From Macrostomum lignano (Eukaryota): a stretch of 64,000 nt of DNA. Where the stretch lies: assembly GCA_002269645.1 (NCBI GenBank), contig NIVC01001395.1, positions 233,505-297,504 on the forward strand. Reading direction: 5' to 3'. Position numbers and translations under genes: made by a program. Positions 5,902-26,417 of the stretch are shown here, one piece after another. Positions within the stretch are counted from its first letter, which is position 1. Every line of letters starts with the position of its first letter. Under the pieces are notes generated by a model. That model did no database searches and had not been told where the DNA came from. It saw nothing but the letters and a program-made list of their open reading frames with translations.

Positions 5902-7929
5902 ATGGCAAACTACGGATTCGCAAAGCCGTCTGCGCGACCCACAGCGGGCACCAGCGGCTACCGGCTTCAGGACGAGGATGCGGCCGCGCTCTCTGGCGGC
6001 GGCTTTCGCTGGGAGTCGCAGTTCGAGCGCTCCTGGGAGGCCCTGGCTGAGGATGAGGAGGGTCGCCTGGCTGGGGCTGTTGGGCGTCTGGAGCAGGTGG
6101 GTGAATTGTTATTGGGCTCATTGGACTTATTTAGTTAGCTAGTCAGTCAGTCAGTCAGCCAGCCAGCCAGTCAGTCAGTCAGTCAGTCAGTCAGTCAGTC
6201 AGTCAGTCAGTCAGCCAGTCAGTCAGTCAGCATCAAACCCCAAACGCCGCAGGCCCGCAAGCGCCGGCACCGTCTCGCAGCGGCAGCCCTGCTACCCGGC
6301 GGCGGTGGCCGGGCCAGCAAGCTGGGCATGATGCGGCATCTGCTGCTGTGCCTGGACTGCTCAGAGACCATGGGCTTGGCCGATCTCAAACCCTGCCGTT
6401 TAGCCGCCTGCCTATCCGCAATGCGCAACTTCGTGTCCGGATTCTTCGATCAGAATCCCATCGGACAGCTGGGCGTGCTGCTGACCAGACGGAAGCTGGC
6501 GGAGAGAGTGACCGAGCTCACTGGCAATCCCAGGCGACATTTGGACGCGCTAAAAGATTTGGCTCAAGCCGGCTCGGGCAAAACCGCCCGTCCCGAAGGG
6601 GAGGCGTCATTTCAGAATCTGCTGGAGATGGCCTACGACACGCTGGGCCCCCTGCCAGGCCACGCCTGCAAAGAGGTGCTCGTGCTGGTGTCAGCCTTGA
6701 GCACCTGCGATCCGGGAGATATCGGTGCGACCATTAGCAAACTGGCCAAGGCTAGGATCAGGTGTTCGGTGAGTGAATCATTTCTGTCTGCCTTTTTTTC
6801 TTTTATTGTTACTGTTTTTCAAGTCCTCTAGATCTGTACCCTTCCTACCCTCCTTTCCCTCTACCCGCTTTCCTCTAATTACCCTCCTTCCCCTCTACCC
6901 GCTTTCCCCTCTATACCCTCTTTCCCCTCTCTATCCGCTTTCCCCTCTCTACCCACCTTCCCCTCTGCCCGCTTTCCCCTGTCTACCCACCTTCCCCTCT
7001 CTACCCGCCTTCCCCTGTCTACCCACCTTCCCCTCTCTACCCGCTTTCCGCTCTACCTGATTTCCGCTCTCTCTCGCGTCCCCGCTTCCCTTTCTCTCAT
7101 TTTACCCTCTCCCCCTTAGATCTCTCCCCTCTATCCTCACTCTCGTCTATCCTTTCTCTACCCTCTTTACCCTCTTTCTACTTTCTCCCAACGCTTTCCT
7201 TCCTAGCCTCTCTCCATCTCTCTGTCTCTTTTCCGCCATGATGCGTCAAGGGCAAAGTACAAGCTCTAGGGAGTGGTTTTACCTTCTAAACCCTGCCAAT
7301 TGGCGTCCCTTTCCCATAAATTGCCCAATTAACAGGTAATATCTCTGTCAGCGGATATTCGCGTATTGCGCAAACTCGCCCAGGCCACTGGCGGCACCTA
7401 CTCTGTGCCGCTAGACGCTGTCCATCTGTCCGACATCATGTCCAGCTTCCTGCCGCCACCGGCCAGCGCTCCCGATCCCGCTCTGATCAAAATGGGCTTC
7501 CCTTACTCGGCTGGGCAGGATGGCCAGGAGCAGCCGGGATCCCAGCAGGATGTCATCCGCATTTGCGCCTGTCACGGCACCGTACTATCCGCCGGGGCCA
7601 CCGCTCACGCCTGCCCCCAGTGCGCCTGTCTTTACTGCGAGCTGCCGGTTGATTGTCGGATTTGCGGATTAAGCTTGGCCAGCGCCGCTCACCTGGCCAG
7701 ATCCTATCAGCACCTGTTCCCGTTGAAGGCATTCGCCGAGGTCACCTTGGCGGCCAGTACGGGCTGTTGCGGATGTGGCGACAGACTAGGCGCTAGCACG
7801 GAAGCCTACCAGTGCAGCGACTGTCGGTCTCATTATTGTATCGATTGCGATCGGCTGTTGCACGACTCTTTGCACTCTTGCCCAGTTTGTTTGCAGACTT
7901 TGTCGGTTAAAACTACTATCGCTACTTAG
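5902..7929 (+). CDS. GTF2H2: TFIIH subunit p44/Ssl1; exons 5902-6096, 6253-6768, 7336-7929
   Basis: N-terminal RWESQFERSWEALAEDEEG; vWA region GMMRHLLLCLDCS..DLKPCR, FFDQNPIGQLG, STCDPGDI; C4 finger CPQC..CELP..C.ICGL and C-terminal C1-like finger. All junctions are GT-AG and in frame. Confidence 0.95.
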
Positions 7930-8700: not shown

Positions 8701-8760
8701 TCATGTGTTTCTAATATATTTTAACTCCATCTATTTGCATGTGTCAACTCTACAACCGCA

Positions 8761-9660
8761 ATGGCAGCCACTTTAGACATTCGTTTGAAGCGTATTAACA
8801 AAACGTACACCGATGGTGACACAATCTCCGGCTATGCCGTGATTCGATGCAAACAAGACTGCGGTCACAATGGTCTCACATTGAATCTGACTGGCACAGT
8901 TAGCATGCAGCTTAGCTCAAAAAATGTCGGAGTATTCGAAGCATTCTATAACAGTATCAAGCCGATTCAATTGACCGGAGCCACACTAGAACTAGCTAAG
9001 CCCGGCAAATTCACCACCGGATTAACAGAAATCCCATTTGAAATACCGTTCAAATCCAAGGGTAACAAAACACTGTATGAGACATACCACGGAGTGTTCA
9101 TTAACATTCAGTACGTGCTTCAGTTGGACTTGAAACGCTCTCTATTGAACAAAGATCTCAGCAAAACTTGCGAGTTCTTAGTCGAATACAATCCAAAGAA
9201 TGCTGGCCAACCGAGCTCGCAGACGCCAATAACTTTCGCTATCAGCCCGGACAGTGTAGTCAATGTTCAGAACAAGGCCAGTCTACCGAAGTTTCGCGTC
9301 ACCGGCCAACTCACATCGAGTCACATTAGTATTTCTGAGCCACTGAGTGGCGAGCTAGTCATTGAGCAGTGCGCTACTCGGATTAAAAGTGTAGAACTGC
9401 AGCTGGTACGCGTAGAGACCTGCGGCTGTCTGGAAGGCTACGCTAAAGAGACTACTGAGATACAGAATATCCAAGTGGCTGATGGAGACGCTCCCAGAGG
9501 GATTAAAATCCCTCTGCACATGGTGCTGCCGCGTCTGTTCACCTGTCCGAGCGTTTCGGCTACCAATTTCCGAATCGAATTCGAAGTCAACATTGTTGTT
9601 GTGTTTCAAGACGACTATCTGGTGTCTGAAAATATCCCTATTCGCGTTAGCAGATTCTGA
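8761..9660 (+). CDS. VPS26C: VPS26C (DSCR3), retriever complex subunit, intronless
   Basis: MAATLDIRLKR..KTY, MQLSSKNVGVFEAFYNSIKPIQ, LYETYHGVFINIQY, IKSVELQLVRVETCGC.EGYAKE.TEIQNIQ, PRLFTCP match the family throughout. Confidence 0.96.
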   Translation: MAATLDIRLKRINKTYTDGDTISGYAVIRCKQDCGHNGLTLNLTGTVSMQLSSKNVGVFEAFYNSIKPIQLTGATLELAKPGKFTTGLTEIPFEIPFKSKGNKTLYETYHGVFINIQYVLQLDLKRSLLNKDLSKTCEFLVEYNPKNAGQPSSQTPITFAISPDSVVNVQNKASLPKFRVTGQLTSSHISISEPLSGELVIEQCATRIKSVELQLVRVETCGCLEGYAKETTEIQNIQVADGDAPRGIKIPLHMVLPRLFTCPSVSATNFRIEFEVNIVVVFQDDYLVSENIPIRVSRF

Positions 9661-14078: not shown

Positions 14079-14670
14079 CAGTATGCGCGCTGCTGTCATT
14101 TGATGCCAATTGACACCATGCATATCAAGGTGGGCATGTAGGCTGTACCTGAGAAGCTAAAAGCATACTTCTGCCAACTCTATCAATTCCCACCTATGCT
14201 TCTAGGCACATTCTCAAGACAAAGATTGTCAGTCAGCAGCCGAATCGTGTTCTTAAAAAAGTCGTCAGTTTGTCAGAAAATGAATCGCTTCTAAAGCGAA
14301 ATAATCAATATTTATGATCTGAGTTGCTTTAGAAATGCTTAAGCCAGTCTGTCAAAGCCACCTGCAAGTTTTCCTAGCAGACTTCAAGGCGCTGTCAACT
14401 GCATCATGGACATTCCCAGCATCCTTGGAACGGGGAATTTAAGCATAGAGCCATGCCAGTCAAACATTCTGAAAACCTTTTTGCAGACGGGGTAAGGCCT
14501 GAAGCGTAAAGCCTCTCAGTCCTTCTTGCTGTATTTTAACCAATCGGAGGTAAGACGCAACTGTAAACCTTTATAATGTATAAAATGGATTGCTGTGGTC
14601 TCAAACTTGCTAACTTCAATCCTTGACCTGCAACACCTATAGAAAGCTGAAGAAAGTTTGTCAATATATC

Positions 14671-15468
14671 ATGTCGACATTTAAACTGATGTTGCTTCTT
14701 CAAAGCGTTATTAACTGCCTGTTGCTGCCAGCCCTGGCCCAGCTGTGTCCCTCGCCGTTCAGTCTTGAGGCCGGAAAGTGCATCTTCGTGAACAAGGTGA
14801 GGAGCTTCAGCTGGTGCGAGGCCAACCGGCAGTGCGCCATGATCGGAGGCGAGCTGCTCAACTCGTACAGCTCTCTGCAGCCGCTCAGCAACATGCCGAG
14901 TTTCGCCTGCAGTTCCTGTTTCGTTTGGCTCGGAGTGACCGACTTGGCTGACGAGAGATTCTCCAGCAGATCGGGATTGCAGTTGGTCAATGGTAACGGC
15001 ATCTTGCCGCTGAATGACTCGCTGTGGCATTTTTCAACTGAGCCAAACAGGAACGTGTTTGAGAACTGCATCTTCCATGCATCCCATGGCAAAATCCACA
15101 ACAATCCATGCGCAGCTGAGCGCGGGTTCGCTTGCGAGTGGGCTCCGAGTGCCGCTCAGCCGCTGCCAACTGCTGCCTCGTGGAAGCTGACTCCGTTCAA
15201 GCGGACCAGCTACCATGCCAGCACTGAGTACTGCTACTCTGACCTGACCAATGTTCACTCCGAGCTGGCTTGTGTCATGTCAGCTTTCAGCTCTGGCAAC
15301 TGCAGACACGTGCTGTACAACAGCAAGCTGAGAGCCTGCCGCCTGCTGCTGTTCACCGACGCTCAGCTAGGTGGAGGCCGAGATCGAGACGAGCGCCGAC
15401 TGGGTCAAGTTCAGCGTGTACTGAGCAATATTGTTTGCATTGTTTGTAGTAATGATTGTTCTGCATAA
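14671..15468 (+). CDS. secreted C-type lectin + PAN/apple-like domain protein, intronless; C-terminus frameshifted by a 4-bp insertion
   Basis: Signal peptide, CPSPF..AGKC, WCEA..QC..IGGEL, WLGV.D, W..EPN..ENC, C..ERGFACE, then C...C..V.YNSKLRACRL. Paralogous to 57125-57892. Confidence 0.8.
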   Translation: MSTFKLMLLLQSVINCLLLPALAQLCPSPFSLEAGKCIFVNKVRSFSWCEANRQCAMIGGELLNSYSSLQPLSNMPSFACSSCFVWLGVTDLADERFSSRSGLQLVNGNGILPLNDSLWHFSTEPNRNVFENCIFHASHGKIHNNPCAAERGFACEWAPSAAQPLPTAASWKLTPFKRTSYHASTEYCYSDLTNVHSELACVMSAFSSGNCRHVLYNSKLRACRLLLFTDAQLGGGRDRDERRLGQVQRVLSNIVCIVCSNDCSA

Positions 15469-15972: not shown

Positions 15973-16149
15973 AAAAATAAAATTGATGGAATGGGTGGTT
16001 TTTCAAGCATAAAAGTTAAATGGGATTACCTAATTATGCGATATTGAATTTACTAGAAAGAAGAAACCTGCCGCCTTAAATTGACCCAAAAGTTGCGCGT
16101 CCGTTTTCGCTCTGGGATTGAAAGTGTCTGAACTTCCCGGACACATGAA

Positions 16150-16722
16150 ACTACGTATCGTGCAGAAACTGCTGGGTTTTGGAGGTGAGGTGGGTGTCAG
16201 AGCCAATGCAAATTCAACGCCTATCTAAATACATTAGACCTCTTCTAATTGGTCCAGACCCTGTAAGTCATTATGTGAGACATTTATGCATGTAACTCTC
16301 ATGTAAATCTAATTATACATGTAATCACTGTATCGTGCAGAAGCGACGAGTACAATATAGTACGCATAATTAGCGCTTCACCGTAGCAGTTGTTGTACGT
16401 AGAAATGCGCGCGCCCAGCCCCACACAATGCAGCATTGGTGTACGCAGAATTAACTGTACATATTAACTGTCCATATACCAAAATTGGCAGAATTAACGC
16501 GCGCCGACCCACCCCATAACTGTCCATATTATTACTTCTCCATATTTACTGTCCATCCCAAAATTGGTGTACGCGCAGAATTGTAGCGTCCGCCCACCCC
16601 ATAGCTGTTCGATCATACCCAAACTTCGTGTACGCGCAGAATTAGCGCCCACCCATCCAAGAAAATATTCTGTCGCCCCTCACAATTAATTGGCGGCCCC
16701 ACGCGGAGGCATGATGAGTCAG
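16150..16722 (+). repeat. left terminal inverted repeat
   Basis: Compared base by base with the reverse complement of 25706-26278: 2 mismatches (16575, 16701). An imperfect extension runs to ~16746. Confidence 0.97.
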
Positions 16723-16906
16723 CCGCTGTAAATCGCTGCTGTCCACACTGTTATATCCACTCCTTCCATACTTCACTCTCTAGAATTCAGCCCTCGTCGA
16801 CACTCCGAGACAATTACGTCACCCCCCAACCCCTCTCCCAAATAAGTTTTCAAAAGGCGTATATATATTTACACAAAAAGCCGGCCGAGCTTTGATACGT
16901 ATATAT

Positions 16907-17557
16907 TTATTTAGCATACACAATTGGGTGACGACCCAAAACGTTTGAATAATAGCGAGCAGGAGCATTTTGCAAACAGTTTACAATCAAGTATGAGTAG
17001 GGGTCGCGAGTAGCATCCTCATACGTTTTGACAAAACTTTTTGGATTAGTGGGGACCAGCTGCCTTGCAATATGAGACACTGTGCTGGCATCCCGTACAT
17101 TGCGGAATAAAACAAGGTAGTTCGAATTGAGCGACTGAGTTCGGTGCTCCTTACCCTTTGCAAAAAGGTTTTGCACAAGATACCAAAGTCGGAACCCCAC
17201 GTGGGAGACTTTGCGCGTGAAAAAAGTTGTAAAAGCGCCACTCTTTTCCATGGCATGCATTTGGTCGTCGACGACAAGCAGAATATTTGGTTCAGGGACA
17301 TATTGTTCAGGATCAAATGTACACGAACGAAAATTTACAGGGTACGGCAATTCAAACAGTTCAGGATCTGGATAGTGGCCAAACCAGTCTACGCGAATCG
17401 GCTTCGGATCTTGAAAAAATTCTTGTCTCAATAGGTTTTTCACAAGTGTGGTCTTGCCGCTTTGAGCCACCCCAGCAAAAATTGCAGACGTTTTGGGGGC
17501 AAATTTTAAAGAGTCGGGGTCTATTGTTTGATACATTTTGATAGGCCGCCCAATCAT
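16907..17557 (-). CDS. A32/FtsK-like genome packaging ATPase
   Basis: Walker A GVAQSGKT, Walker B LLVVDD, plus FTRKVSH..LVQNLF..RTQSLNSNYLVLFRN.RD typical of Polinton ATPases. AATAAA overlaps the stop. Confidence 0.93.
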   Translation of the reverse strand: MIGRPIKMYQTIDPDSLKFAPKTSAIFAGVAQSGKTTLVKNLLRQEFFQDPKPIRVDWFGHYPDPELFELPYPVNFRSCTFDPEQYVPEPNILLVVDDQMHAMEKSGAFTTFFTRKVSHVGFRLWYLVQNLFAKGKEHRTQSLNSNYLVLFRNVRDASTVSHIARQLVPTNPKSFVKTYEDATRDPYSYLIVNCLQNAPARYYSNVLGRHPIVYAK

Positions 17558-17559
17558 AT

Positions 17560-18009
17560 TTATGGATGATGCTGCTTTATTTGTAGACAGTGATTCTGCA
17601 CCATCAAGTCGTTCTCGTAAAGATTTGTGCTATAACAGTCGCGCAATATTTTTTCAATTGACAGACCCTCCAAAAAGTGTTTTTCAGCCACAAATATTAC
17701 ATGAGCCCCGCAGGTCACACTCAGCGGATGCTGTACAGGATGCCGATTCATGGCCACCTCCACAGGGACATACTTTGCGATCCACAACTTTAATAAATCT
17801 GGCACAGGATCGATACACAAGGGGTCAAAAAATGTCACGCTCTCATCGGCATGAAGACAAATTAAAGCCCAGTGAGTGCCTGGTAGATTGCCAGTGTCAA
17901 AGTTAATCACGTATGCAGCAGGATAAGCAGGCTGCGGAATCCTGTCAACTGGTGTTACTCGAACAGGGGCAGGTAGTATTAGACGTTCTAATATATCTAG
18001 ACTATTCAT
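17560..18009 (-). CDS. adenain-like cysteine maturation protease
   Basis: YVINFD..PGTHW, FFDP, PVQ..SVTCG: the H-D-Q-C catalytic set is intact. Confidence 0.92.
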   Translation of the reverse strand: MNSLDILERLILPAPVRVTPVDRIPQPAYPAAYVINFDTGNLPGTHWALICLHADESVTFFDPLCIDPVPDLLKLWIAKYVPVEVAMNRHPVQHPLSVTCGAHVIFVAEKHFLEGLSIEKILRDCYSTNLYENDLMVQNHCLQIKQHHP

Positions 18010-18056
18010 ATTGGCATGAATGTGGCCGTTATTCGGGAATAAAAAAATGTTTGTTT

Positions 18057-19340
18057 CTACACGTAGTCTAGAATAACCTGACGACCGCGAGTGATTTGCA
18101 CAGTATTGTCAAAGTAGCCAAACACCAACACGTTGATTTCTGCGGCCAAGGCAGCAGAAAACTTTATTTGTAGCGTCAGATTCCCTCGCTCGCGAGGCAT
18201 GCTATGCCCGCCCAGCTCCATGTCGGGCATGAGATTCCAGGCGAAGAAGCAGTAGCCAGCTCCATAGTCGGAATATGATACGTCAATATCCAGGTCCCGA
18301 TTCATCTTTCCGAGGCTTTTTAGTAGCATGGCATACTCGCGAGCATAGTTATGAACACCGAATCGAGGAGTAAACGGTTGTCCACACAGACTGACTCCGT
18401 CCTTATACAGAGCGACACTGTCGGCACCAAATGGCTCAAAATTAAACGGGTTATGTGTAGCCACACCGTTGTACGCGCCGCTGTTTACCATGCCAACAAC
18501 CATTAGTTTAGGCTTTTGTTCAGGAAATATATTATTGATTGACATGTCCCGAACACCGCCAGCCACTGAAGTATTGTGCACAACAAGTCGCTCAATCGGA
18601 TAGATTGCATTCTGTTTGCCTAGTTGTTCTTCAATCTCCAATGCCAATTGGGGGTTTGCCTTGACGCGGCGCACATGTAGTTTGGCACTCTCGAGTACTA
18701 GCCGCGCATCAACCCCGTCCGCGTGGTTTTCCAGAACGAAGCCGGAATTGTGCATGGTCAGCGTAATTACCATATCAGTGTATGGCAGTAGCATTCGGTC
18801 GTTGGTAACAAAAAAGTCTAAACTAAGAGGTCCATAAAGGTGAAAGGTGCGTGAGTTTGCTGCCATCGCCTTGCGGGCTACAAAGCCAGGATTTCCAACC
18901 ACAGCCATTTGACCTCCAGCGTCCTTTGCGTAGCCCATCATTCTCAGTTGGTTGGTTTTTGAATCGTGTCCGTAATTCAAACACGTGCGAATGTAGGCTT
19001 TGTAAGCGTGGTTGTTATTGCTCGACTCTACGTGTGTCCCGTTGATTGTCAACGTGACGTTTTTAAACATGCTTTCAAGGACGTAATTGACCGGCGCAAC
19101 ATTCGAATCAGCAGCAAGATTTGTGCCATTAGATTGCCTAACGCGGGCCTTAATCTCGAGGTCAATGTCGTTAAGATCGATAAACGTCTCACCACCAACA
19201 ATCCTAAATTCGACCACGCTGGCATTTTCAACACTGGCAACAGGGTGAACTTCTTCAGTGGTGGCGCTAATTGCAGCAATTTGGTGTGCACGAGGAGCAA
19301 ATAGCTCGAATTCCGACTTTGTACACAGGCACTCAGTCAT
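18057..19340 (-). CDS. double jelly-roll major capsid protein
   Basis: 427 aa with KSEFELF, VEFRI..FIDL, PVNY.LESMF, YKAYI..LNYG, KP..VVGMV..AYNG..NPFNF, DY..GY.FFAWNL.PD and L.L.IKFS.AL, matching the Polinton/adintovirus hexon pattern. Confidence 0.93.
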   Translation of the reverse strand: MTECLCTKSEFELFAPRAHQIAAISATTEEVHPVASVENASVVEFRIVGGETFIDLNDIDLEIKARVRQSNGTNLAADSNVAPVNYVLESMFKNVTLTINGTHVESSNNNHAYKAYIRTCLNYGHDSKTNQLRMMGYAKDAGGQMAVVGNPGFVARKAMAANSRTFHLYGPLSLDFFVTNDRMLLPYTDMVITLTMHNSGFVLENHADGVDARLVLESAKLHVRRVKANPQLALEIEEQLGKQNAIYPIERLVVHNTSVAGGVRDMSINNIFPEQKPKLMVVGMVNSGAYNGVATHNPFNFEPFGADSVALYKDGVSLCGQPFTPRFGVHNYAREYAMLLKSLGKMNRDLDIDVSYSDYGAGYCFFAWNLMPDMELGGHSMPRERGNLTLQIKFSAALAAEINVLVFGYFDNTVQITRGRQVILDYV

Positions 19341-19358
19341 TTTTCTTTCAACAGCGGC

Positions 19359-19751
19359 TTAGTGTGGTGCTCTAATAGACAGATCAGTTATTGGCACGGG
19401 TTTTTTATTTATAGAGTCGAAAATATCAGAATGCTGCAGTCTTTTTCTCGTTTTTTTGTTAGTCATCTTTCTTCGTCTTTGTCTGCCGCTACCTCGTTGT
19501 GCGACTGTGTCCTTGAAAGCATCTTTAGCTGCCTGGACAGAGTTACGCAATGCTTCTTCTTTCAAGTTCCCGCCTTGATCGAGTGTGTCGTTAACTGTTG
19601 TAGCTAGGGCTCGTGTTCCGTGGCGAAGAATATTTTTGCCAAAACTCTTTAAAATTGGCAGGGCAAATCGGGCAATGCTGCCAAACAGGCCGTTGCCGCG
19701 CTGTGCACCGGAAAATACCGGTAAAGCTCCTCCGATCAAGATTGAAGGCAT
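19359..19751 (-). CDS. basic core/membrane-lytic-like protein with amphipathic helix (cupiennin-like class of adintoviruses)
   Basis: QRGNGLFGSIARFALPILKSFGKNIL amphipathic segment, QRGSG followed by an Arg/Lys tract, and position next to the capsid genes. Confidence 0.7.
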   Translation of the reverse strand: MPSILIGGALPVFSGAQRGNGLFGSIARFALPILKSFGKNILRHGTRALATTVNDTLDQGGNLKEEALRNSVQAAKDAFKDTVAQRGSGRQRRRKMTNKKTRKRLQHSDIFDSINKKPVPITDLSIRAPH

Positions 19752-19795
19752 ATTGTCGATCAGTTGCTACCTTTTATTCGTGAAAACTTCTTTAT

Positions 19796-20948
19796 TTATA
19801 GCTTAATTTCACGAATGTTGATCGATAAAACAGTTTTACCTCGAAGAATCCGATCCATTAACTTGCCCATATCGTCACAGATTTGCACCTCAATGGTTTT
19901 GAATGGGTGTTTCACCAACGGTAAGTAGGATGGATTGACAAACTCGTAGTACTCTCGTTCGCCGTATACCTTTTCATTCAAAGGAATTGCCCCAAGCAGG
20001 GGGACTTTGACGTCTCCAACAATGGCAGAGTCGACAATATTTGAATAGATGTACATAGTTTGTACACCATTTGTTAAATCGATTGGTCGTTTAGCGGTCT
20101 TTGGAGTTTCATTGAAAACATCTTCGCGAAAGCCGAGAATGGCAGCAAGCTCTCCAATGTCGAATAAAATGTTTTCAATGGGTTTGTACTCACACCGGTT
20201 CAGAAAAGGGTTGTAGCGGAATGCATCCACTCTCGTCGCTGGACTTATTGGGAGCTTTGAAACGACGCTCCAAAGCGCTCCATTAACATAATTTAAGAGC
20301 TCGTCAGGCGTGCGGTAGAACCCTTTAGCAATCCGCAGTGACGTTCTAGAAGGCCAGATACTCTTTTCAAACGTTAGAGTCATGGGACTCTATATGGAGG
20401 AGGAGGTCTCCAATTCTATAGCGAATACTAAAGAATTTCTTGGGTTTAATAAAAAAGTCGTTACTTCGATATTTGATTTATTTCCAGCGTCGTCAACCTT
20501 TTTAAACATGCTACACACATTACTGGACAGCCTAATGTTCGCACCATACCATGATTTGTTCACAATTGAAATTTGGCCTTCCTGTGAACGCTCAATGCAA
20601 ATCATCGCATTATCGTCTTGCTCATATTTTAGAGCGGCGATGATTGCATCAACCACTTCGTTGGCTGTTGATAGCCCCGCGGGAGAGAAACCGACGCAAA
20701 CTGTTTATACGTGGAGGCGGGTTTTTCTCTACCTCAATGTCAATCACTTCATCCTCGGGAGCGTTGGTCAGGACATCAACCATTCGATTATCGGGGACGG
20801 TTTTGAATTCTTTACAAAAGTAGATCCGTTCGATGCAGACTTCATGATTCGGAAAGTGGAGGGTGTCGGGCAAATTAATGCTATAATGTGCCGAATTATT
20901 CTCAGGATAGTGCTCAACGCACGCATTGCTAGGTAGGAATAGATGCAT
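19796..20948 (-). CDS. minor capsid protein (penton), split over three ORFs by apparent 1-bp lesions
   Basis: N-terminus MHLFLPSNA..YPENNSAHYSINLP..EVCIERI and C-terminus MYIYSNIVD..VGDVKVPLL..NPSYLPL..IEVQICDD.G are penton hallmarks. Frame changes at ~20724 and ~20671, plus a TAG at 20390-20392 or compensating shifts. Confidence 0.82.
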
Positions 20949-20982
20949 TGTAATATACCACACGTTTCGAGTGTATGTGTGT

Positions 20983-21975
20983 TCATCCTTGTCTTATATT
21001 TATAACTTCCTCAACTGGTACAAATGCATTGAACGACTCGGGATAGCCGCGCCAACTAACGAAATGATGAGCAACACCATTGATGACGACATTGCGACGC
21101 AGAATTTTGTCTATAACAAAGCGGTCCGGTCGAACCGTCTTTGAAAGTTCATTATAGTAGAATCGACCCTCGATTTGTTCTCCAGATAGGTCGGAAATGC
21201 GATAAAAATGAGGCGGTCCCGGGCATACTTGAGACACAACGTAAACTTCTTCGCTGTACATATCGTATGCTTCCTTGTCAAAGGCTCGACGAGATTTTGA
21301 AATTCTGACAAAGTCCCCTTTTTGGTAAACTGGTTCATCATATTCAGGATCCTTGTAGAGCTTTTCCCACAATTCTTTTTGGTTGTGCAGACCGACACTC
21401 GAAGGTTTCATATCAATAGTAGAGTGTACTGTGTTGTTGTAACTTTTAACCAATATTGGCAAATAGTCGATCCAACGCCACGTGTTTTTATGCTCAAAGT
21501 AGCGAGCTAAACGTTTTCGGAGAGTCCTAATCAGCCTTTCAGCCATATTTGCCTTGTATACAGAGTTTGTACTGTACATTTTGATATTATTGGCTTTCAG
21601 TAAGTTCTGCATGCGATTGTTATAAAACTCGGTACCTCGATCAACGTGTAGATATAAAGGCTTAATGGGGAAGTCTTTAATCATGCTTTCAAAAGCCTTT
21701 GGAGTGTCGCTTTTCAATTTTATTGCCTGGCACTACTTTACATGACATTACTTTTCCGGTTTGGAATTTTCTTTTAACCCTCTTGTGCCGGGTGTAGCTC
21801 GATTGGGTCTTCAGCCATTCGTCTGTTTGGCGTCTCGTCAGGGAGGGGACCAGCCGTTTGGCCTCCTGATATACACGGGCAGCATTTGTAAAAGCGGCGT
21901 CCCCCTGTTCGTACACTCTCCGAAGAGCGGTTTTCACCCAGCGGTTTTCACCCAACTAGATTCGATGCACAGCAT
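20983..21975 (-). pseudogene. retroviral-like (rve) integrase with C-terminal chromodomain, inactivated
   Basis: WL..Q.SYTRHKRVKRKF, VDRGTEF (2nd D), AERLIRTL (E), WIDYLP.LV.SYN...HSTI, chromodomain IDKIL..FVSWRGYP. A 14-bp tandem duplication (21926-21953) frameshifts the N-terminus, and the segment carrying the first catalytic Asp is missing near 21730. Confidence 0.88.
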
Positions 21976-22046
21976 GAGTAATTACACTTGAACTCCACAG
22001 ACGGTTTGTCTGAGCAAAGCTTTGAAGTTACAGCTGCGGCACCCAT
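21948..22046 (-). CDS. putative 32-aa Cys-rich MG-start microprotein
   Basis: MGAAAVTSKLCSDKPSVEFKCNYSCCASNLVG*, 37 nt downstream of a CTATAAATA box. Below the ORF track cut-off. Confidence 0.4.
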   Translation of the reverse strand: MGAAAVTSKLCSDKPSVEFKCNYSCCASNLVG

Positions 22047-22086
22047 GATCCAAAAACAGATTATATATCATGAAAATGATTTCTAT

Positions 22087-22737
22087 TTATAGTTTTTTTA
22101 ACGTCTCGTATTTTACTGCTGGTTTCTGCCGCCTCTTTGGTTCGCGAAGTTGGTATGAAGCATGCCTGTAGGCATCGCTGCCACGATCTTCATATTTTTT
22201 AATTTCATTCTGGCCACTGGCTTGGTCTTTGTGGAAGTCGTTGTAGAAATCATTAGTTCCAATTGCTTGCTCGACTAAAAAATCGTCTCGATCCGGATCC
22301 GTGCCGACTTCTTTTTTCACACTGACTTCTTCTTGTTGGTGTCGTCCTAGTAGAGCTTTTGCAATATCTGCCTCTTCGGCCAGGGCCCAAAAAGCGGTAC
22401 TATATTTTGGGCTTGGGCGGTCGCGCCTTTCATTCGATGTAATCTCCTTCAATAGATCGAAAATATTGCTTCCTGGCCAGGTTTTTCCATCAAATACAAT
22501 TTCCCACGACTTGTTGTACTCCAAATTTGGGTATCTTTCTGTCAGCATGTCCCAAACAAGTTGTTGTCGTTCAGGAAAACGATTACTCTTCTTTTGCTTG
22601 ATCTGACTTAGTTTATTTTGGAGTTGAGTGTTGTATTCAATGAGTTTTTCATATTCTGTTTTGGATGCAATTTCTCGGGGTGCGCCTTGACTTAGTCTAT
22701 TAAATTCTTCTTCTGGTACAACAACGTATTTATTCAT
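22087..22737 (-). CDS. conserved Polinton hypothetical protein (GSNI.DL motif family)
   Basis: MNKYVVVPEEEFNRL start directly after the upstream stop, and WEIVFDGKTWPGSNIFDLL resembles a recurrent Polinton unknown protein. Confidence 0.65.
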   Translation of the reverse strand: MNKYVVVPEEEFNRLSQGAPREIASKTEYEKLIEYNTQLQNKLSQIKQKKSNRFPERQQLVWDMLTERYPNLEYNKSWEIVFDGKTWPGSNIFDLLKEITSNERRDRPSPKYSTAFWALAEEADIAKALLGRHQQEEVSVKKEVGTDPDRDDFLVEQAIGTNDFYNDFHKDQASGQNEIKKYEDRGSDAYRHASYQLREPKRRQKPAVKYETLKKL

Positions 22738-22738
22738 T

Positions 22739-23095
22739 TTAGCGACCGAGTAGTCCGCCAAACAGGCTTGATATTAGCGGTGCAGCAACGGATGCAAGGA
22801 TGGGTAGAAAGCCACCGACTTGAGGATTCGAGAGAAGCATATTCTTCTTCCTATTTATAGACAATTTTGTGTCTGCCAATTCACGCAACGATCTTCTGTA
22901 TCGCTTTAATCGCAGATACTGTTTCGGAGAAAGATCGATATTTCCCCGGAGCACGTTGTGACTCAATTCACAGAGACAATGAATCAGTTCCTTGCCTGCA
23001 CCTCGAATAATTGCCCGCCGAAGAGCGGGTCGGGCTTTGGCGAGCTCTGCGAGCTCGCCGCGACAAGAACATAGTCTGGAGATTCCGTTTGTCAT
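22739..23095 (-). CDS. adenovirus pX-like core protein (conserved in adintoviruses)
   Basis: LIHCLCELSHNVLRGNIDLS..LKRYRRSLRELA..KK.ML..QVGGFLPILASVAAPLISSL. The GGFLP.L tail resembles adenovirus pX. Real ATG at 23095. Confidence 0.75.
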   Translation of the reverse strand: MTNGISRLCSCRGELAELAKARPALRRAIIRGAGKELIHCLCELSHNVLRGNIDLSPKQYLRLKRYRRSLRELADTKLSINRKKNMLLSNPQVGGFLPILASVAAPLISSLFGGLLGR

Positions 23096-23341
23096 TTTGT
23101 TTAGCAAAAAGATGTTGGTTGCAGTGCACTGCAATTTATGCACAATATATTTATAGACAATTTCATAGCAGCTTGTACGTACATACAAATTCGGTACAGT
23201 GGTAAAACAGTAAAGTTACGCAACAGCTACATGGATTAGACATGCAAAACGCTAGTCACATGATCGTACATTTGACAGAGCTCTTTAAAGCTTCGTATTC
23301 CAAGAAAAACAAGGTGGCCATTCTTTCCGCATAATAAACAT

Positions 23342-23716
23342 TTAGCCTTGCGAAATGGAGACTTTATTACTATTCCATTGAAAACTTCGCACTCCCACTT
23401 CACCCAGTGGGACCCGTAGTATGCAATTTGGAAAAAAAATTGGCAATCTGTCTACTTCAGCGCGGTAAGTACTAGTGGTAACAACAACAGAAATTGGTTT
23501 ACATTGAGGAAAAAGACGCAAAACTTGGTTGACTGAGCGACAACCGAATACAATTGCAGACAAAGAACGCTGAAAAAAGTTGATTGTACATTTTCCTATT
23601 CGCAAATTGATAAGAGCTCTTGGTCTGCGAAATGTCCGTGCGCTCGCCCAGTCCAAGTCAGGCATGCGGCTCCATTTCGCGCAAAACACTCGTTTCACAC
23701 ACTCGACGTTCTGCAA
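23342..23716 (-). CDS. TBP (TATA-binding protein)-like domain, no in-frame ATG
   Basis: Hand alignment to the TBP core: LQNVECVKRVFC ~ LQNIVSTVNLGC; ALINLRI ~ AAVIMRI at identical spacing; IVFGCRSVNQ ~ VCTGAKSEEQ; second repeat FPNCILRV..SNKVSI ~ FPGLIYRM..SGKVVL. The track start is TTG. Confidence 0.55.
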   Translation of the reverse strand: MQNVECVKRVFCAKWSRMPDLDWASARTFRRPRALINLRIGKCTINFFQRSLSAIVFGCRSVNQVLRLFPQCKPISVVVTTSTYRAEVDRLPIFFPNCILRVPLGEVGVRSFQWNSNKVSISQG

Positions 23717-24447
23717 GTAGATTTTTCGGCAGTTTTTACTTTCGTATCCTTCTTGGGGGCTTTCGACCGCTTCTTTGATTCGTTGGCTGCTACTAGTTTC
23801 GATTGATGCTGTCGCTTTCTGGCCTGATTTTTAGGCACCTTTGGCTGCTTCTCCTTGACAAGCTTTGGTGGTTTCTTTGCTTTCTTGCTTACTTTCTTGG
23901 TGCCTACCTTGATTTTTGGAGGTGGCATCCAATAGCAACGGTCGAATGCCTGTTTGGCTTCTTCGACAAACTGTAGCTGTTGAATTTTTGGCATTGCGGT
24001 CAAAACAGCGTCTCGAATCACGGCCGTGTCGAGAGTAAACAGAATCCTGTAGTAGCCGCTCTTGTTTTTGTAATCCTTTACAGGCAGTCCGTTCTGGTCG
24101 TACATTTTAAAGTCGTGAGCCAGCCCAAACGCTGCACTGTCACCTCCAAACGCTGGGTTGTAGCCCAGCAGAGCTAGACTTTCGCTGGAAAGGTGCTCCG
24201 CCACAGTGTTGAAAGTGTAGGGTATGCAGCTTTCAATGTGTTTTTGTGCAATGATGATGAATTCGCGACCTTCGTTGTCAGTACGCACACCTTTGACAAT
24301 CAAAACAGGGACCGCATTGGCCAAGTAGAGAGGTCCCTGTTCGTCATATTCAATGTCAAACGTTTCAACCCCGTTGAAGCTCGGACCTCGCGGTTTGAGT
24401 GCCAGCAGCTCTCGCTTGACGCAGTTGAAGTCTTGCACTGTCTCCAT
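23695..24447 (-). CDS. hypothetical protein: possible OB-fold ssDNA-binding domain plus Lys-rich tail
   Basis: 250-aa ORF with ATG and an upstream TATGTAAG. MYDQNG..KSGYYRILFTL..KIQQLQFVE loosely resembles gp2.5/DUF2815-type SSBs; the last ~70 aa are very Lys-rich. Confidence 0.6.
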   Translation of the reverse strand: METVQDFNCVKRELLALKPRGPSFNGVETFDIEYDEQGPLYLANAVPVLIVKGVRTDNEGREFIIIAQKHIESCIPYTFNTVAEHLSSESLALLGYNPAFGGDSAAFGLAHDFKMYDQNGLPVKDYKNKSGYYRILFTLDTAVIRDAVLTAMPKIQQLQFVEEAKQAFDRCYWMPPPKIKVGTKKVSKKAKKPPKLVKEKQPKVPKNQARKRQHQSKLVAANESKKRSKAPKKDTKVKTAEKSTCRTSSV

Positions 24448-24565
24448 GTCTCTTGTCTGTTTAGAAAAATTTGCAGGTACGGGCGCTTGCAGATGCTTCG
24501 GGCTGGTGCTTACATACCCGAGAGTCTCAATAAGTTTTTGTTTTAATTACACGATAACGAGCTTT

Positions 24566-25078
24566 TTACAGAGTTGTCGTTATCGAGGATTCCGGAAAAA
24601 TGAACCTTTTGTTTCTATTTTCGGGTGCTGGCGTTGGAGGCGTGCTGAAATCCTTGCTCCAAGTTGCGGGTAGTTCAAGCTTTGGCGGCCTGTTCCTCTT
24701 GTGCTTTGGCAGCCAAAAATTCCAAATCTTTTGTTGCTCCTCCCACGACGGATTATACAGATCTTGATGGTTCCGAAAACGTATTTTTTGGCGATGCTCT
24801 TCACTTAGTATCGGAGCCAGTAATCTCTCCATTCGTGCTAAATCAGCTTTGAATCTCATTTTGTCCCGTAGTTGCTCATTTATCCTGGCTGCTGCGTAGT
24901 CTTGGCTGTCGTAGGGGCCTTGATCAATTTCCTCGACCTTGGCATTGAAGGTGACTAATCGCTCGGAAATCGGTTTGCTGTGGCAAATGCACAACCAGTC
25001 AGCAGATTTTTTCAAGGCCTCATATTCGTCTTTTTCCTCGTTCGATAATAGGGGGTAGTCTCTGGAAATCCAGCTCAT
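24566..25078 (-). CDS. hypothetical protein (170 aa), no recognised family
   Basis: ATG-started ORF with TATATAAG at 25200-25207; its C-terminal part is duplicated at 25157-25406. Confidence 0.6.
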   Translation of the reverse strand: MSWISRDYPLLSNEEKDEYEALKKSADWLCICHSKPISERLVTFNAKVEEIDQGPYDSQDYAAARINEQLRDKMRFKADLARMERLLAPILSEEHRQKIRFRNHQDLYNPSWEEQQKIWNFWLPKHKRNRPPKLELPATWSKDFSTPPTPAPENRNKRFIFPESSITTTL

Positions 25079-25156
25079 TTCTTGTCAAGCACTTGCTGCG
25101 TTGTTCGCACTAGTGGTGGGAATGTTATTTGAGCTTAGAAAACTGCCGAGAATCCG

Positions 25157-25501
25157 AGAAAAATTTGCAGGTACGGGTGCTTGGTGCTCCAGGTTGGTGC
25201 TTATATACCCGAGAGTCTCAATAAGTTTTTTTTAATTACATGTTAACGAGCTTTTTACGGTGTTGTCGTTATCGAGGATTCCAGAAAAAATGAGCCTTTT
25301 GTACCTATTTTCGGTGCTGGCGTTGGAGGCCTTGCTCCTTGCTCCAAGTTGTTGGCAATTCATGCTTTGGCGGTCTGATCCTCTTGTGCTTTGGCAACCA
25401 AAAATTGCTTGTCAAACACTGCGTTTTCCACACGATTGGGTTGTTAATTGAACTTGGTGAATTTAGATAAACGGCCGAGAATCCAAATTTTCTTATTTAT
25501 A
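25157..25501 (-). pseudogene. internally deleted, degenerate upstream copy of the 170-aa gene with its own TATA box
   Basis: 25157-25406 aligns to 24463-24721 (NFWLPKHKR.RPPK.ELP.TWSK). 25407-25420 matches 25081-25093, GCCGAGAATCC occurs at both 25474 and 25145, and there is no ATG. Confidence 0.75.
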
Positions 25502-25705
25502 GTTTGCTGTCTGAACAAAATTGGTTTGGCATCTTGTTAAACGAGAATATTTCATGCATAGAAGTTTGTGTTTTCAGACCTTGATGACGTGTCTGGCTAT
25601 AAAGTTAGCATTGTGGCTCGACCGGGTTGTTGCGTAACACTGCTGCAGGTAGCTATATCGGCCAGCGCAGGGCAGAGGGGTGGACAGCGGCGATTTACTG
25701 GCTGA

Positions 25706-26278
25706 CTGACTCATCATGCCTCCGCGCGGGGCCGCCAATTAATTGTGAGGGGCGACAGAATATTTTCTTGGATGGGTGGGCGCTAATTCTGCGCGTACAC
25801 GAAGTTTGGGTATGATCGAACAGCTATGGGGTGGGCGGACGCTACAATTCTGTGCGTACACCAATTTTGGGATGGACAGTAAATATGGAGAAGTAATAAT
25901 ATGGACAGTTATGGGGTGGGTCGGCGCGCGTTAATTCTGCCAATTTTGGTATATGGACAGTTAATATGTACAGTTAATTCTGCGTACACCAATGCTGCAT
26001 TGTGTGGGGCTGGGCGCGCGCATTTCTACGTACAACAACTGCTACGGTGAAGCGCTAATTATGCGTACTATATTGTACTCGTCGCTTCTGCACGATACAG
26101 TGATTACATGTATAATTAGATTTACATGAGAGTTACATGCATAAATGTCTCACATAATGACTTACAGGGTCTGGACCAATTAGAAGAGGTCTAATGTATT
26201 TAGATAGGCGTTGAATTTGCATTGGCTCTGACACCCACCTCACCTCCAAAACCCAGCAGTTTCTGCACGATACGTAGT
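25706..26278 (-). repeat. right terminal inverted repeat
   Basis: Reverse complement of 16150-16722, followed by TSD CATGAA. Confidence 0.97.
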
Positions 26279-26417
26279 CATGAAAGACACCTGGACGTCC
26301 TACTCGAAGCGTGTCCAATGCAAGACTCTCCATCAAATCTGATTATGACTTATGGGGAAATTGCTGAAATTCTGTGACTTACGAATTAGAACTCTGTTTC
26401 TTAATAATAATTGATTA

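What the first reader, a model, noticed from the sequence alone, without database searches (positions are those of the whole stretch)
23342..23716. TBP-like protein encoded by the viral element
By eye both TBP repeats align: LQNVECVKRVFC-x21-ALINLRI has the same spacing as LQNIVSTVNLGC-x21-AAVIMRI, followed by G-x-[RK]-S-x-x-Q and a second FP..I.R...S.KV.I repeat. One added T near 23352 would extend it with a plausible final helix (FARLNVYYAERMATLFF...). A basal transcription factor is not part of the standard Polinton gene set as I know it; literature novelty must be checked. Identity is low, so this remains a hand-made hypothesis.
Basis: inference. Interest (0 to 1): 0.78.

Follow-up and report, generated by a model that had tools for sequence, protein, structure and literature searches.

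The report
Polinton TBP likely spliced to SSB
A virus-like transposon in a flatworm genome carries a conserved, very divergent copy of the TATA-binding protein that has no start codon of its own, so it is likely made by splicing (possibly onto a predicted single-stranded-DNA-binding protein) and likely helps switch on the element's capsid genes.

Summary
The TBP call is right, but the alignment behind it is half wrong. The window copy sits in a complete 10.1-kb Polinton-like element and is frame-broken near 23,432-23,439. In 18 of 31 sibling copies one frame runs through both TBP-like halves. Relatives hit Pfam TBP (best E 2e-5, above cut-off), fold searches rank TBP first (weakly), and dN/dS is 0.07. 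The acidic TFIIB-contact stirrup is invariant; two of four DNA-intercalating phenylalanines appear lost. The frame has no usable ATG. It follows a predicted T7-gp2.5/ASFV-CP312R-type SSB gene across a length-variable spacer with conserved donor- and acceptor-like ends, so splicing is likely: cis (SSB-TBP fusion) or via the host's AUG-ending spliced leader. No spliced read was seen (contigs only). TATAAATA occurs 7 times on the coding strand and never on the other. Other Polintons in this genome carry clearer TBPs with a different motif (CTTAAGA). In print I found TBP in such elements only in figure legends of Starrett 2021; this scan already noted Polinton TBPs in other genomes. New here: the start-less, SSB-linked form.

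The parts
16150..26278 (.). Complete Polinton-like element (10,129 bp), no pPolB gene
   Evidence: 573-nt 100% inverted repeats; 6-bp target duplication at 16,144-16,149 and 26,279-26,284; ORF list
16150..16722 (.). Left terminal inverted repeat
25706..26278 (.). Right terminal inverted repeat
23236..23710 (-). TBP-like coding region (157 codons in intact siblings; predicted exon 2); frame-broken in this copy
23432..23439 (-). Homopolymer run where the frame of this copy breaks (assembly error or private mutation)
23380..23397 (-). Acidic stirrup of the second repeat (W-E-x-E-V-F), the TFIIB-contact loop of cellular TBP (role recalled)
   Evidence: both glutamates invariant in 11 of 11 rows including host TBP
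23711..23907 (-). Lys-rich-coding spacer, predicted phase-0 intron (GT...CAG), 197 nt here, 67 nt in subfamily B
   Evidence: splicing itself not observed
23908..24447 (-). Upstream ORF, predicted OB-fold ssDNA-binding protein of the T7 gp2.5 / ASFV CP312R type (predicted exon 1); unspliced it ends in a Lys-rich tail at 23,695
   Evidence: AlphaFold pLDDT 56; VIA top four hits are CP312R Z 6.6, gp2.5 Z 4.5, Enc34 SSB, DUF2815; BFVD giant-virus hits E 6e-4; dN/dS 0.04
24509..24516 (-). TATA-type box ahead of the SSB/TBP unit (TATATAAG in subfamily B and in run contigs; one base different in this copy); promoter function inferred
23148..23155 (-). TATAAATA motif just downstream of the TBP-like gene, ahead of the next ORF (one of 7; the others begin at 25,501, 22,859, 22,091, 21,004, 19,800, 19,413)
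20983..21955 (-). rve integrase with chromodomain (split in this copy)
   Evidence: subfamily B orthologue rve E 8.6e-10
18057..19358 (-). Probable major capsid protein
   Evidence: inferred from size, position and recalled Polinton gene set; no Pfam hit; 26-33% identical to the ORF in pPolB-bearing group C
17560..18108 (-). Probable adenain-like protease
   Evidence: subfamily B orthologue weak Peptidase_C48 (E 0.06); inference
16907..17629 (-). Probable packaging ATPase (P-loop)
   Evidence: weak P-loop family hits; inference from context

Best explanation
The region is a conserved, highly diverged TBP-fold gene of a young Polinton-like element, frame-broken in this copy and lacking its own start codon, that is likely expressed by splicing from the upstream transcript of a predicted ssDNA-binding protein and likely acts as a viral initiation factor for the element's TATAAATA-led capsid, integrase and packaging genes. 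Shown: the intact frame in siblings, purifying selection, TBP similarity, no ATG, conserved donor- and acceptor-like ends, the strand-specific motif. Inferred: an early TATATAAG promoter read by host factors drives the SSB transcript; unspliced it gives SSB with a basic tail; removal of the phase-0 spacer gives an SSB-TBP protein (the same acceptor could also take the host spliced leader); the TBP domain would bind or stabilise the TATAAATA sites and recruit host TFIIB and Pol II through its kept acidic stirrup, giving a late-gene switch like herpesvirus vTBP.
For: Frame open in 18 of 31 subfamily-A loci and in 21 full-length subfamily-B loci. Pfam TBP: P0005 E 2.3e-5, 24.6 bits over the 22.9 cut-off; subfamily B E 9.5e-5, 22.6 bits; P0003 0.0024; P0004 0.044. 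Foldseek's top 20 are all TBP chains, best E 2e-3; VIA top hit yeast TBP, Z 5.5, rmsd 2.8, 74 aligned. dN/dS 0.071 overall and 0.068 in the first 15 codons, upstream of any ATG. Subfamily B has no Met until the last helix. A-versus-B identity drops right after the donor-like site. In all 8 upstream-ORF rows except the frameshifted P0011, conservation ends at I-K|V followed by G, R or C, each of which puts G at intron position +5 (such residues are 10% of the spacer), and in B and the five relatives resumes at [IL][AS]E, which fits ..TNCAG. P0008 has I-S-E, which excludes a TTG start there. Spacer length is 2 mod 3 in most A copies and 1 mod 3 in B, so no single frameshift fits. TATAAATA 7 coding / 0 opposite in the window and in two B loci, shuffled mean under 0.4. 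Group C Polintons carry a clear TBP (E 1e-22 to 9e-25) and a different motif, CTTAAGA (37 coding / 0 opposite in 10 loci).
Against: No spliced joint in 8 layings of 7 public runs; all contigs crossing the spacer are unspliced (contigs only, RNA status guessed, rare forms dropped). The acceptor has an A-rich upstream tract, unlike 3 host acceptors viewed. B and all five relatives keep the spacer in one frame, so the unspliced tail is itself constrained. Relatives, but not A or B, have an ATG inside the first strand. All fold and profile scores for this lineage are weak (pLDDT 59; VIA Z 5.5 is tied with unrelated folds), and the first repeat never scores in Pfam. TATAAATA is a canonical TATA box (recalled) that host TBP could read unaided. 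Two of four intercalating Phe and the second Asn appear lost. CTTAAGA was chosen after the fact from 8 of the same loci.
Confidence: 0.5

Rival explanations
1. Same gene and role, but made as a stand-alone protein: the host spliced leader is trans-spliced onto the acceptor at 23,711 and its terminal AUG supplies the missing start codon in frame.
For: The host has 33 copies of a leader ending ATG|GT (control 0). Flatworm leaders end in ATG, can supply a start, use UUNYAG acceptors and share them with cis-splicing (PMC12582326 passages). The acceptor fits that motif and is phase 0.
Against: Does not explain the conserved donor-like site. No leader-bearing loose end at that place in 8 layings. 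Hosts of the relatives are unknown. Not exclusive of cis-splicing.
Confidence: 0.2
2. The frame is translated from a non-AUG start (TTG at 23,716) by re-initiation or from an unseen internal transcript, or by a ribosomal frameshift; no splicing.
For: TTG-CAG is kept in A, B and as the called start of P0003. All run contigs are unspliced.
Against: P0008's overlap excludes TTG. The frame offset differs between A and B. No TATA-type motif lies between the upstream ATG and the TBP frame. No conserved slippery site in relatives.
Confidence: 0.15
3. The TBP-fold domain no longer reads promoters; it acts as a decoy for host TFIIB or other TBP partners, or as a DNA-binding replication or packaging accessory of the SSB, while host TBP reads TATAAATA.
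For: Loss of two intercalating Phe and one Asn; a very long branch, about 5 changes per site; canonical TATA motif; linkage to an SSB-like gene in A, B and apparently three outside contigs (matching contig lengths).
Against: Group C pairs a related TBP with a non-TATA motif that also precedes the TBP gene itself, which fits promoter reading. Stirrup glutamates are invariant, though a decoy would keep them too.
Confidence: 0.12
4. Chance resemblance: the ORF is a viral protein of another fold.
For: No hit for the window or a single sibling; low model confidence.
Against: Four methods converge on TBP; HHalign 85%, E 6e-6 to the unambiguous group C/D TBPs.
Confidence: 0.03

Closest known systems
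Cellular TBP and TRF2/TBPL1 (Pfam PF00352)
   Same: Two-repeat layout, acidic stirrup E-x-E-x-F, one Phe kept in each repeat, first Asn likely kept.
   Different: 16-21% identity to host TBP; about 157 aa with a shortened first stirrup and second helix; two Phe and the second Asn apparently lost; no start codon; linked to an SSB-like ORF.
Beta/gamma-herpesvirus vTBP (KSHV ORF24, EBV BcRF1, HCMV UL87)
   Same: Works like it in the proposed model: a virus without its own RNA polymerase carries a TBP mimic and a shared late-promoter motif (PMC12529657 abstract; listing).
   Different: ORF24 is a large protein in a six-factor complex, reads TATT, binds Pol II directly and is modelled as incompatible with TFIIB (section heading); this protein is minimal and keeps the TFIIB stirrup. 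No homology test beyond the shared fold.
TBP genes in MELD viruses / adintovirus-like elements (Starrett et al. 2021, PMC8502044)
   Same: A gene 'similar to TATA binding proteins' is labelled in figure legends on elements with adintovirus-like genes.
   Different: Only an abbreviation in legends; the figure is not held, so the carrier is unknown to me; no analysis of residues, promoters or expression in the passages read.
TBP-like genes of group C and D Polintons in this same genome
   Same: Polinton-borne, overlap the tail of an upstream ORF, share Asn-to-Thr in repeat 2; HHalign E 6e-6; weak common clade 67/76.
   Different: Own ATG, both repeats score in Pfam, a different upstream ORF, pPolB adjacent in several copies, CTTAAGA rather than TATAAATA.
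Adenovirus L4-22K/33K (recalled, not tested)
   Same: One N-terminal exon giving two proteins by alternative splicing that control late genes.
   Different: No sequence or fold relation tested; here exon 1 is SSB-like and exon 2 TBP-like.

Membership tests
TBP family (PF00352) | Profile match above the curated cut-off | tested here: inconclusive
   Met by relative P0005 (24.6 vs 22.9 bits), just missed by subfamily B (22.6), no hit for the window or sibling L004
TBP family (PF00352) | Two-repeat saddle fold | tested here: inconclusive
   Secondary structure has two strand-strand-strand-helix halves; Foldseek and VIA rank TBP first but align well only one half at a time; Pfam scores repeat 2 only
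TBP family (PF00352) | Four intercalating Phe and two Asn on the DNA face (positions recalled) | tested here: not met
   Against host TBP two Phe are kept and two absent; second Asn is Thr (alignment uncertain in repeat 1)
TBP family (PF00352) | Acidic TFIIB-binding stirrup in repeat 2 (role recalled) | tested here: met
   Both glutamates invariant in 11 of 11 rows; sequence only
TBP family (PF00352) | Sequence-specific TATA binding and TFIIB binding | not testable with these tools
   needs bench assay
Polinton/Maverick | Long terminal inverted repeats and 6-bp target duplication | tested here: met
Polinton/Maverick | rve integrase | tested here: met
   E 1.5e-4 in the split window copy; E 8.6e-10, over cut-off, in subfamily B
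Polinton/Maverick | Protein-primed DNA polymerase B | tested here: not met
   No room or ORF for it between the repeats of the window element, nor in A copies on C1070 and C296 or B copies on C1329 and C110; other copies not examined. Present in group C
Polinton/Maverick | Capsid proteins, protease, packaging ATPase | tested here: inconclusive
   ORFs of fitting size and order, 26-37% identical to MCP and ATPase candidates of pPolB-bearing group C; Pfam support weak or absent; not folded
T7 gp2.5 / giant-virus OB-fold SSB (upstream ORF) | gp2.5-type OB fold | tested here: inconclusive
   VIA Z 6.6, rmsd 4.8, 136 aligned to CP312R; Z 4.5 to gp2.5; top four rows are of this type and stand above the rest, but Z is under 8 and pLDDT is 56
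Herpesvirus vTBP | Pol II-binding domain, partner vPIC proteins, TATT promoter | tested here: not met
   157-aa domain, TATAAATA motif; analogy only

The most novel reading that the evidence does not exclude
Probability: 0.28. Interest if true: 0.86.

Novelty: new variant of a known kind. Interest (0 to 1): 0.64.

Why it matters
How Polintons time and switch on their virion genes without an RNA polymerase is not worked out. A self-encoded TBP with a lineage-specific promoter word is a concrete, testable answer, here in an animal with many young copies. If the SSB-TBP splice is real it is a compact way to couple replication to late transcription. If the leader supplies the AUG, it is a mobile element that depends on host trans-splicing for a start codon. 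It also shows that such genes are missed by ordinary gene calling and Pfam.

Tried and rejected
Pfam and PDB searches with the window ORF or one sibling: nothing. Search for longer, fused relatives: none among 7,999 scored candidates, weak evidence since gene callers do not splice. Related loci for the TBP-like, SSB-like and group C/D alignments in viral and metagenome contigs: none, so no DNA of outside relatives was seen and their splice signals are inferred from overlapping protein frames. No run is on record as RNA ('no RNA holder listed'); layings gave uniform unspliced contigs and cannot show expression. Complex prediction with a host TFIIB exon: no answer, score 0.00, partner fold uncertain; neither for nor against. 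The protein atlas and the representative-library search gave no result. Upstream ORF: no Pfam or PDB sequence hit. Tree of 31 TBPs: Polinton rows group at only 67/76 with long branches, the AU test did not run, origin unresolved.

Full report
What is at the locus. The finding lies inside a complete element at 16,150-26,278 with 573-nt terminal inverted repeats that are 100% complementary and a 6-bp target duplication, so the insertion is recent. All genes are on the minus strand: an rve integrase with chromodomain and ORFs that by size, order and weak hits are probably minor and major capsid proteins, a protease and a packaging ATPase (inference). There is no protein-primed polymerase here or in four other copies examined. 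It works like a Polinton but fails that one defining test. The host is a flatworm by its spliced leader: 33 exact matches to part of the published Macrostomum leader, control 0.

Checking the observation. The genome holds 31 loci at 94% or more identity (subfamily A; 40 of 69 candidates scored). By the protein search, 18 of these 31 have one open frame through the whole domain, 2 have an in-frame stop and 11, including the window, are split. A second subfamily (B, 78% amino-acid identity) has 21 full-length or near full-length open loci. The window copy breaks in a homopolymer run at about 23,432-23,439, and contigs from 4 of 4 public runs differ from it there, so it is an assembly error or a private mutation. 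It also has Lys at the otherwise kept Asn. Between A and B the true frame has dN/dS 0.071 (157 codons; synonymous sites near saturation, pS 0.70).

What the protein is. Three outside relatives at 64-67% identity were found. Pfam TBP hits 4 of 4 sequences scanned, always in the second half: P0005 E 2.3e-5 (above cut-off), subfamily B 9.5e-5 (just below), P0003 0.0024, P0004 0.044. A five-row profile against the PDB returns 21 weak hits, 20 of them TBP; the top row is an unrelated chain. The AlphaFold model is poor (pLDDT 59). Foldseek's first 20 rows are all TBP, best E 2e-3. VIA's top row is yeast TBP at Z 5.5, tied with unrelated folds, aligning model 12-86 to chain 69-160. Each line is weak alone; together, and with HHalign 85% to unambiguous Polinton TBPs, they make the fold about 90-95% likely. 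Against host TBP (functional positions recalled), both stirrup glutamates that contact TFIIB are invariant, one intercalating Phe per repeat is kept and one lost, and the second Asn is Thr. It is TBP-like, not a canonical TBP.

The missing start. Subfamily B has no Met until the last helix, and A only one unconserved Met, yet the first 15 codons are as constrained as the rest. No TATA-type motif lies between the upstream ATG at 24,447 and the TBP frame. The upstream ORF folds, with low confidence, like an OB-fold ssDNA-binding protein: ASFV CP312R Z 6.6, T7 gp2.5 Z 4.5, then Enc34 SSB and DUF2815, plus many giant-virus proteins. CP312R is listed as ssDNA-binding in PMC12172490 (passage). Its conservation ends at I-K|V in A, B and five relatives. 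A Lys-rich spacer of 22-63 residues follows, and conservation resumes at [IL][AS]E in B and the relatives. In A and B the DNA reads AAG|GTAGG at one end and TTGCAG| at the other, both at codon boundaries, 196-206 and 67 nt apart in nearly all loci. The residue after Val is G, R or C, which always puts G at intron position +5; such residues make up 10% of the spacers (lineages are related, so this is not a formal test). P0008's I-S-E excludes a TTG start, and the A/B frame offsets exclude one fixed frameshift. The pairing of the two genes in outside relatives rests on matching contig lengths and on their overlapping frames. I therefore favour cis-splicing to an SSB-TBP protein, with unspliced SSB as the other product. 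The same acceptor could take the host leader, whose terminal AUG would be in frame; PMC12582326 (passages) reports terminal ATG, UUNYAG acceptors and cis/trans sharing in flatworms. Against: no joint or leader end in 8 layings of 7 runs (contigs only, RNA status guessed), an A-rich tract before the acceptor unlike 3 host examples, and an internal ATG in the outside relatives.

Promoters. TATAAATA occurs 7 times on the coding strand and never on the other, in the window element and in two B loci, at matching places ahead of successive genes (shuffled mean 0.13-0.39; 2 in the 54 kb of host sequence). The SSB/TBP unit has TATATAAG instead. A family search shows many more Polinton TBPs in this genome (capped at 150 of 330). 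Groups C and D have their own ATG and score E 1e-19 to 9e-25, and group C lies beside pPolB in several copies. Ten group C loci have 0-1 TATAAATA but 2-6 CTTAAGA each on the coding strand, none opposite (motif chosen after the fact; loci are related). Different TBP variants thus go with different words, which fits promoter reading by the viral factor. TATAAATA itself could be read by host TBP. No Polinton TFIIB showed up: the 15 PF00382 matches fall on seven contigs, and the two I opened are intron-bearing host genes. The tree does not resolve the origin (67/76, long branches).

What is known. [quoted passage not shown] 2021 (PMC8502044, passages and section 3.4; preprint passages; one supplement searched without hits; figures not held). 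Term searches of PMC11161782, two 2026 preprints and a nematode Polinton preprint found no TBP or TATA. Preprint supplements and most subscription journals could not be seen and may hold more. The functional model is herpesvirus vTBP (PMC12529657, abstract and headings; listing). This scan has 16 earlier notes on Polinton TBP in at least 3 other genomes, none similar in sequence to this protein, none in this genome and none matching an SSB-fusion query; I reused their reading of a self-supplied promoter factor.

Verdict. A real, selected, very divergent TBP-fold gene (about 0.93); a role in transcribing the element's own genes (about 0.65); expression by splicing of either kind (about 0.7). 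New variant of a known kind; interest 0.64. The SSB-TBP chimera is the part worth testing first, because RNA reads alone can settle it.

Noticed in passing
G000, e.g. L086-L100, L103-L105 (group C) and L101 (group D): Apart from host TBP and a TRF2-like gene (3 loci each), most of the 150 scored PF00352 matches (330 candidates) are multi-copy TBP-like ORFs; of 20 stretches fetched, 17 show capsid- or ATPase-like neighbours. Each overlaps the tail of an upstream ORF.
   Followed up: partly
group C loci, e.g. L096 and L089: CTTAAGA(A) lies about 40-110 nt before several start codons, including that of the TBP gene, only on the coding strand; absent from subfamilies A and B.
   Followed up: partly
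window 16,150-26,278; L107-L111; L055, L106, L113, L114: Young, repeat-bounded elements with integrase, probable virion module and SSB-like gene but no pPolB in the 5 copies examined; they must borrow a polymerase (inference).
   Followed up: partly
L119:1788-2552 (-): A group C element carries a PC4/Sub1-like ORF (PF02229, E 3.6e-6), an ssDNA-binding coactivator family: a possible parallel to the SSB link.
   Followed up: no
L114:6082-6885 (-): Subfamily B carries a Fic-domain gene (PF02661, E 7e-14) that the window element lacks.
   Followed up: no
window 24,494-24,721 and 25,185-25,406: An internal duplication of about 690 nt with 82-90% identity, including the promoter-like box ahead of the SSB-like gene.
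   Followed up: no
L055:3453-4591, L058:6730-7868: In two subfamily B copies the integrase core and its chromodomain part lie in different frames at the same place: shared error, shared mutation or programmed frameshift.
   Followed up: no
L058:4480-5607 (+): One natural B copy reads straight through SSB-like ORF, spacer and TBP-like domain as a 375-aa frame; probably an assembly slip.
   Followed up: partly
window 14,614-15,468 (+): Host-side ORF with a weak C-type lectin match (E 0.024) just outside the left repeat.
   Followed up: no
window 6,139-7,929 and 8,725-9,660 (+): Host ORFs that look like TFIIH p44 and a VPS26C/DSCR3-type gene (recalled, not searched).
   Followed up: no
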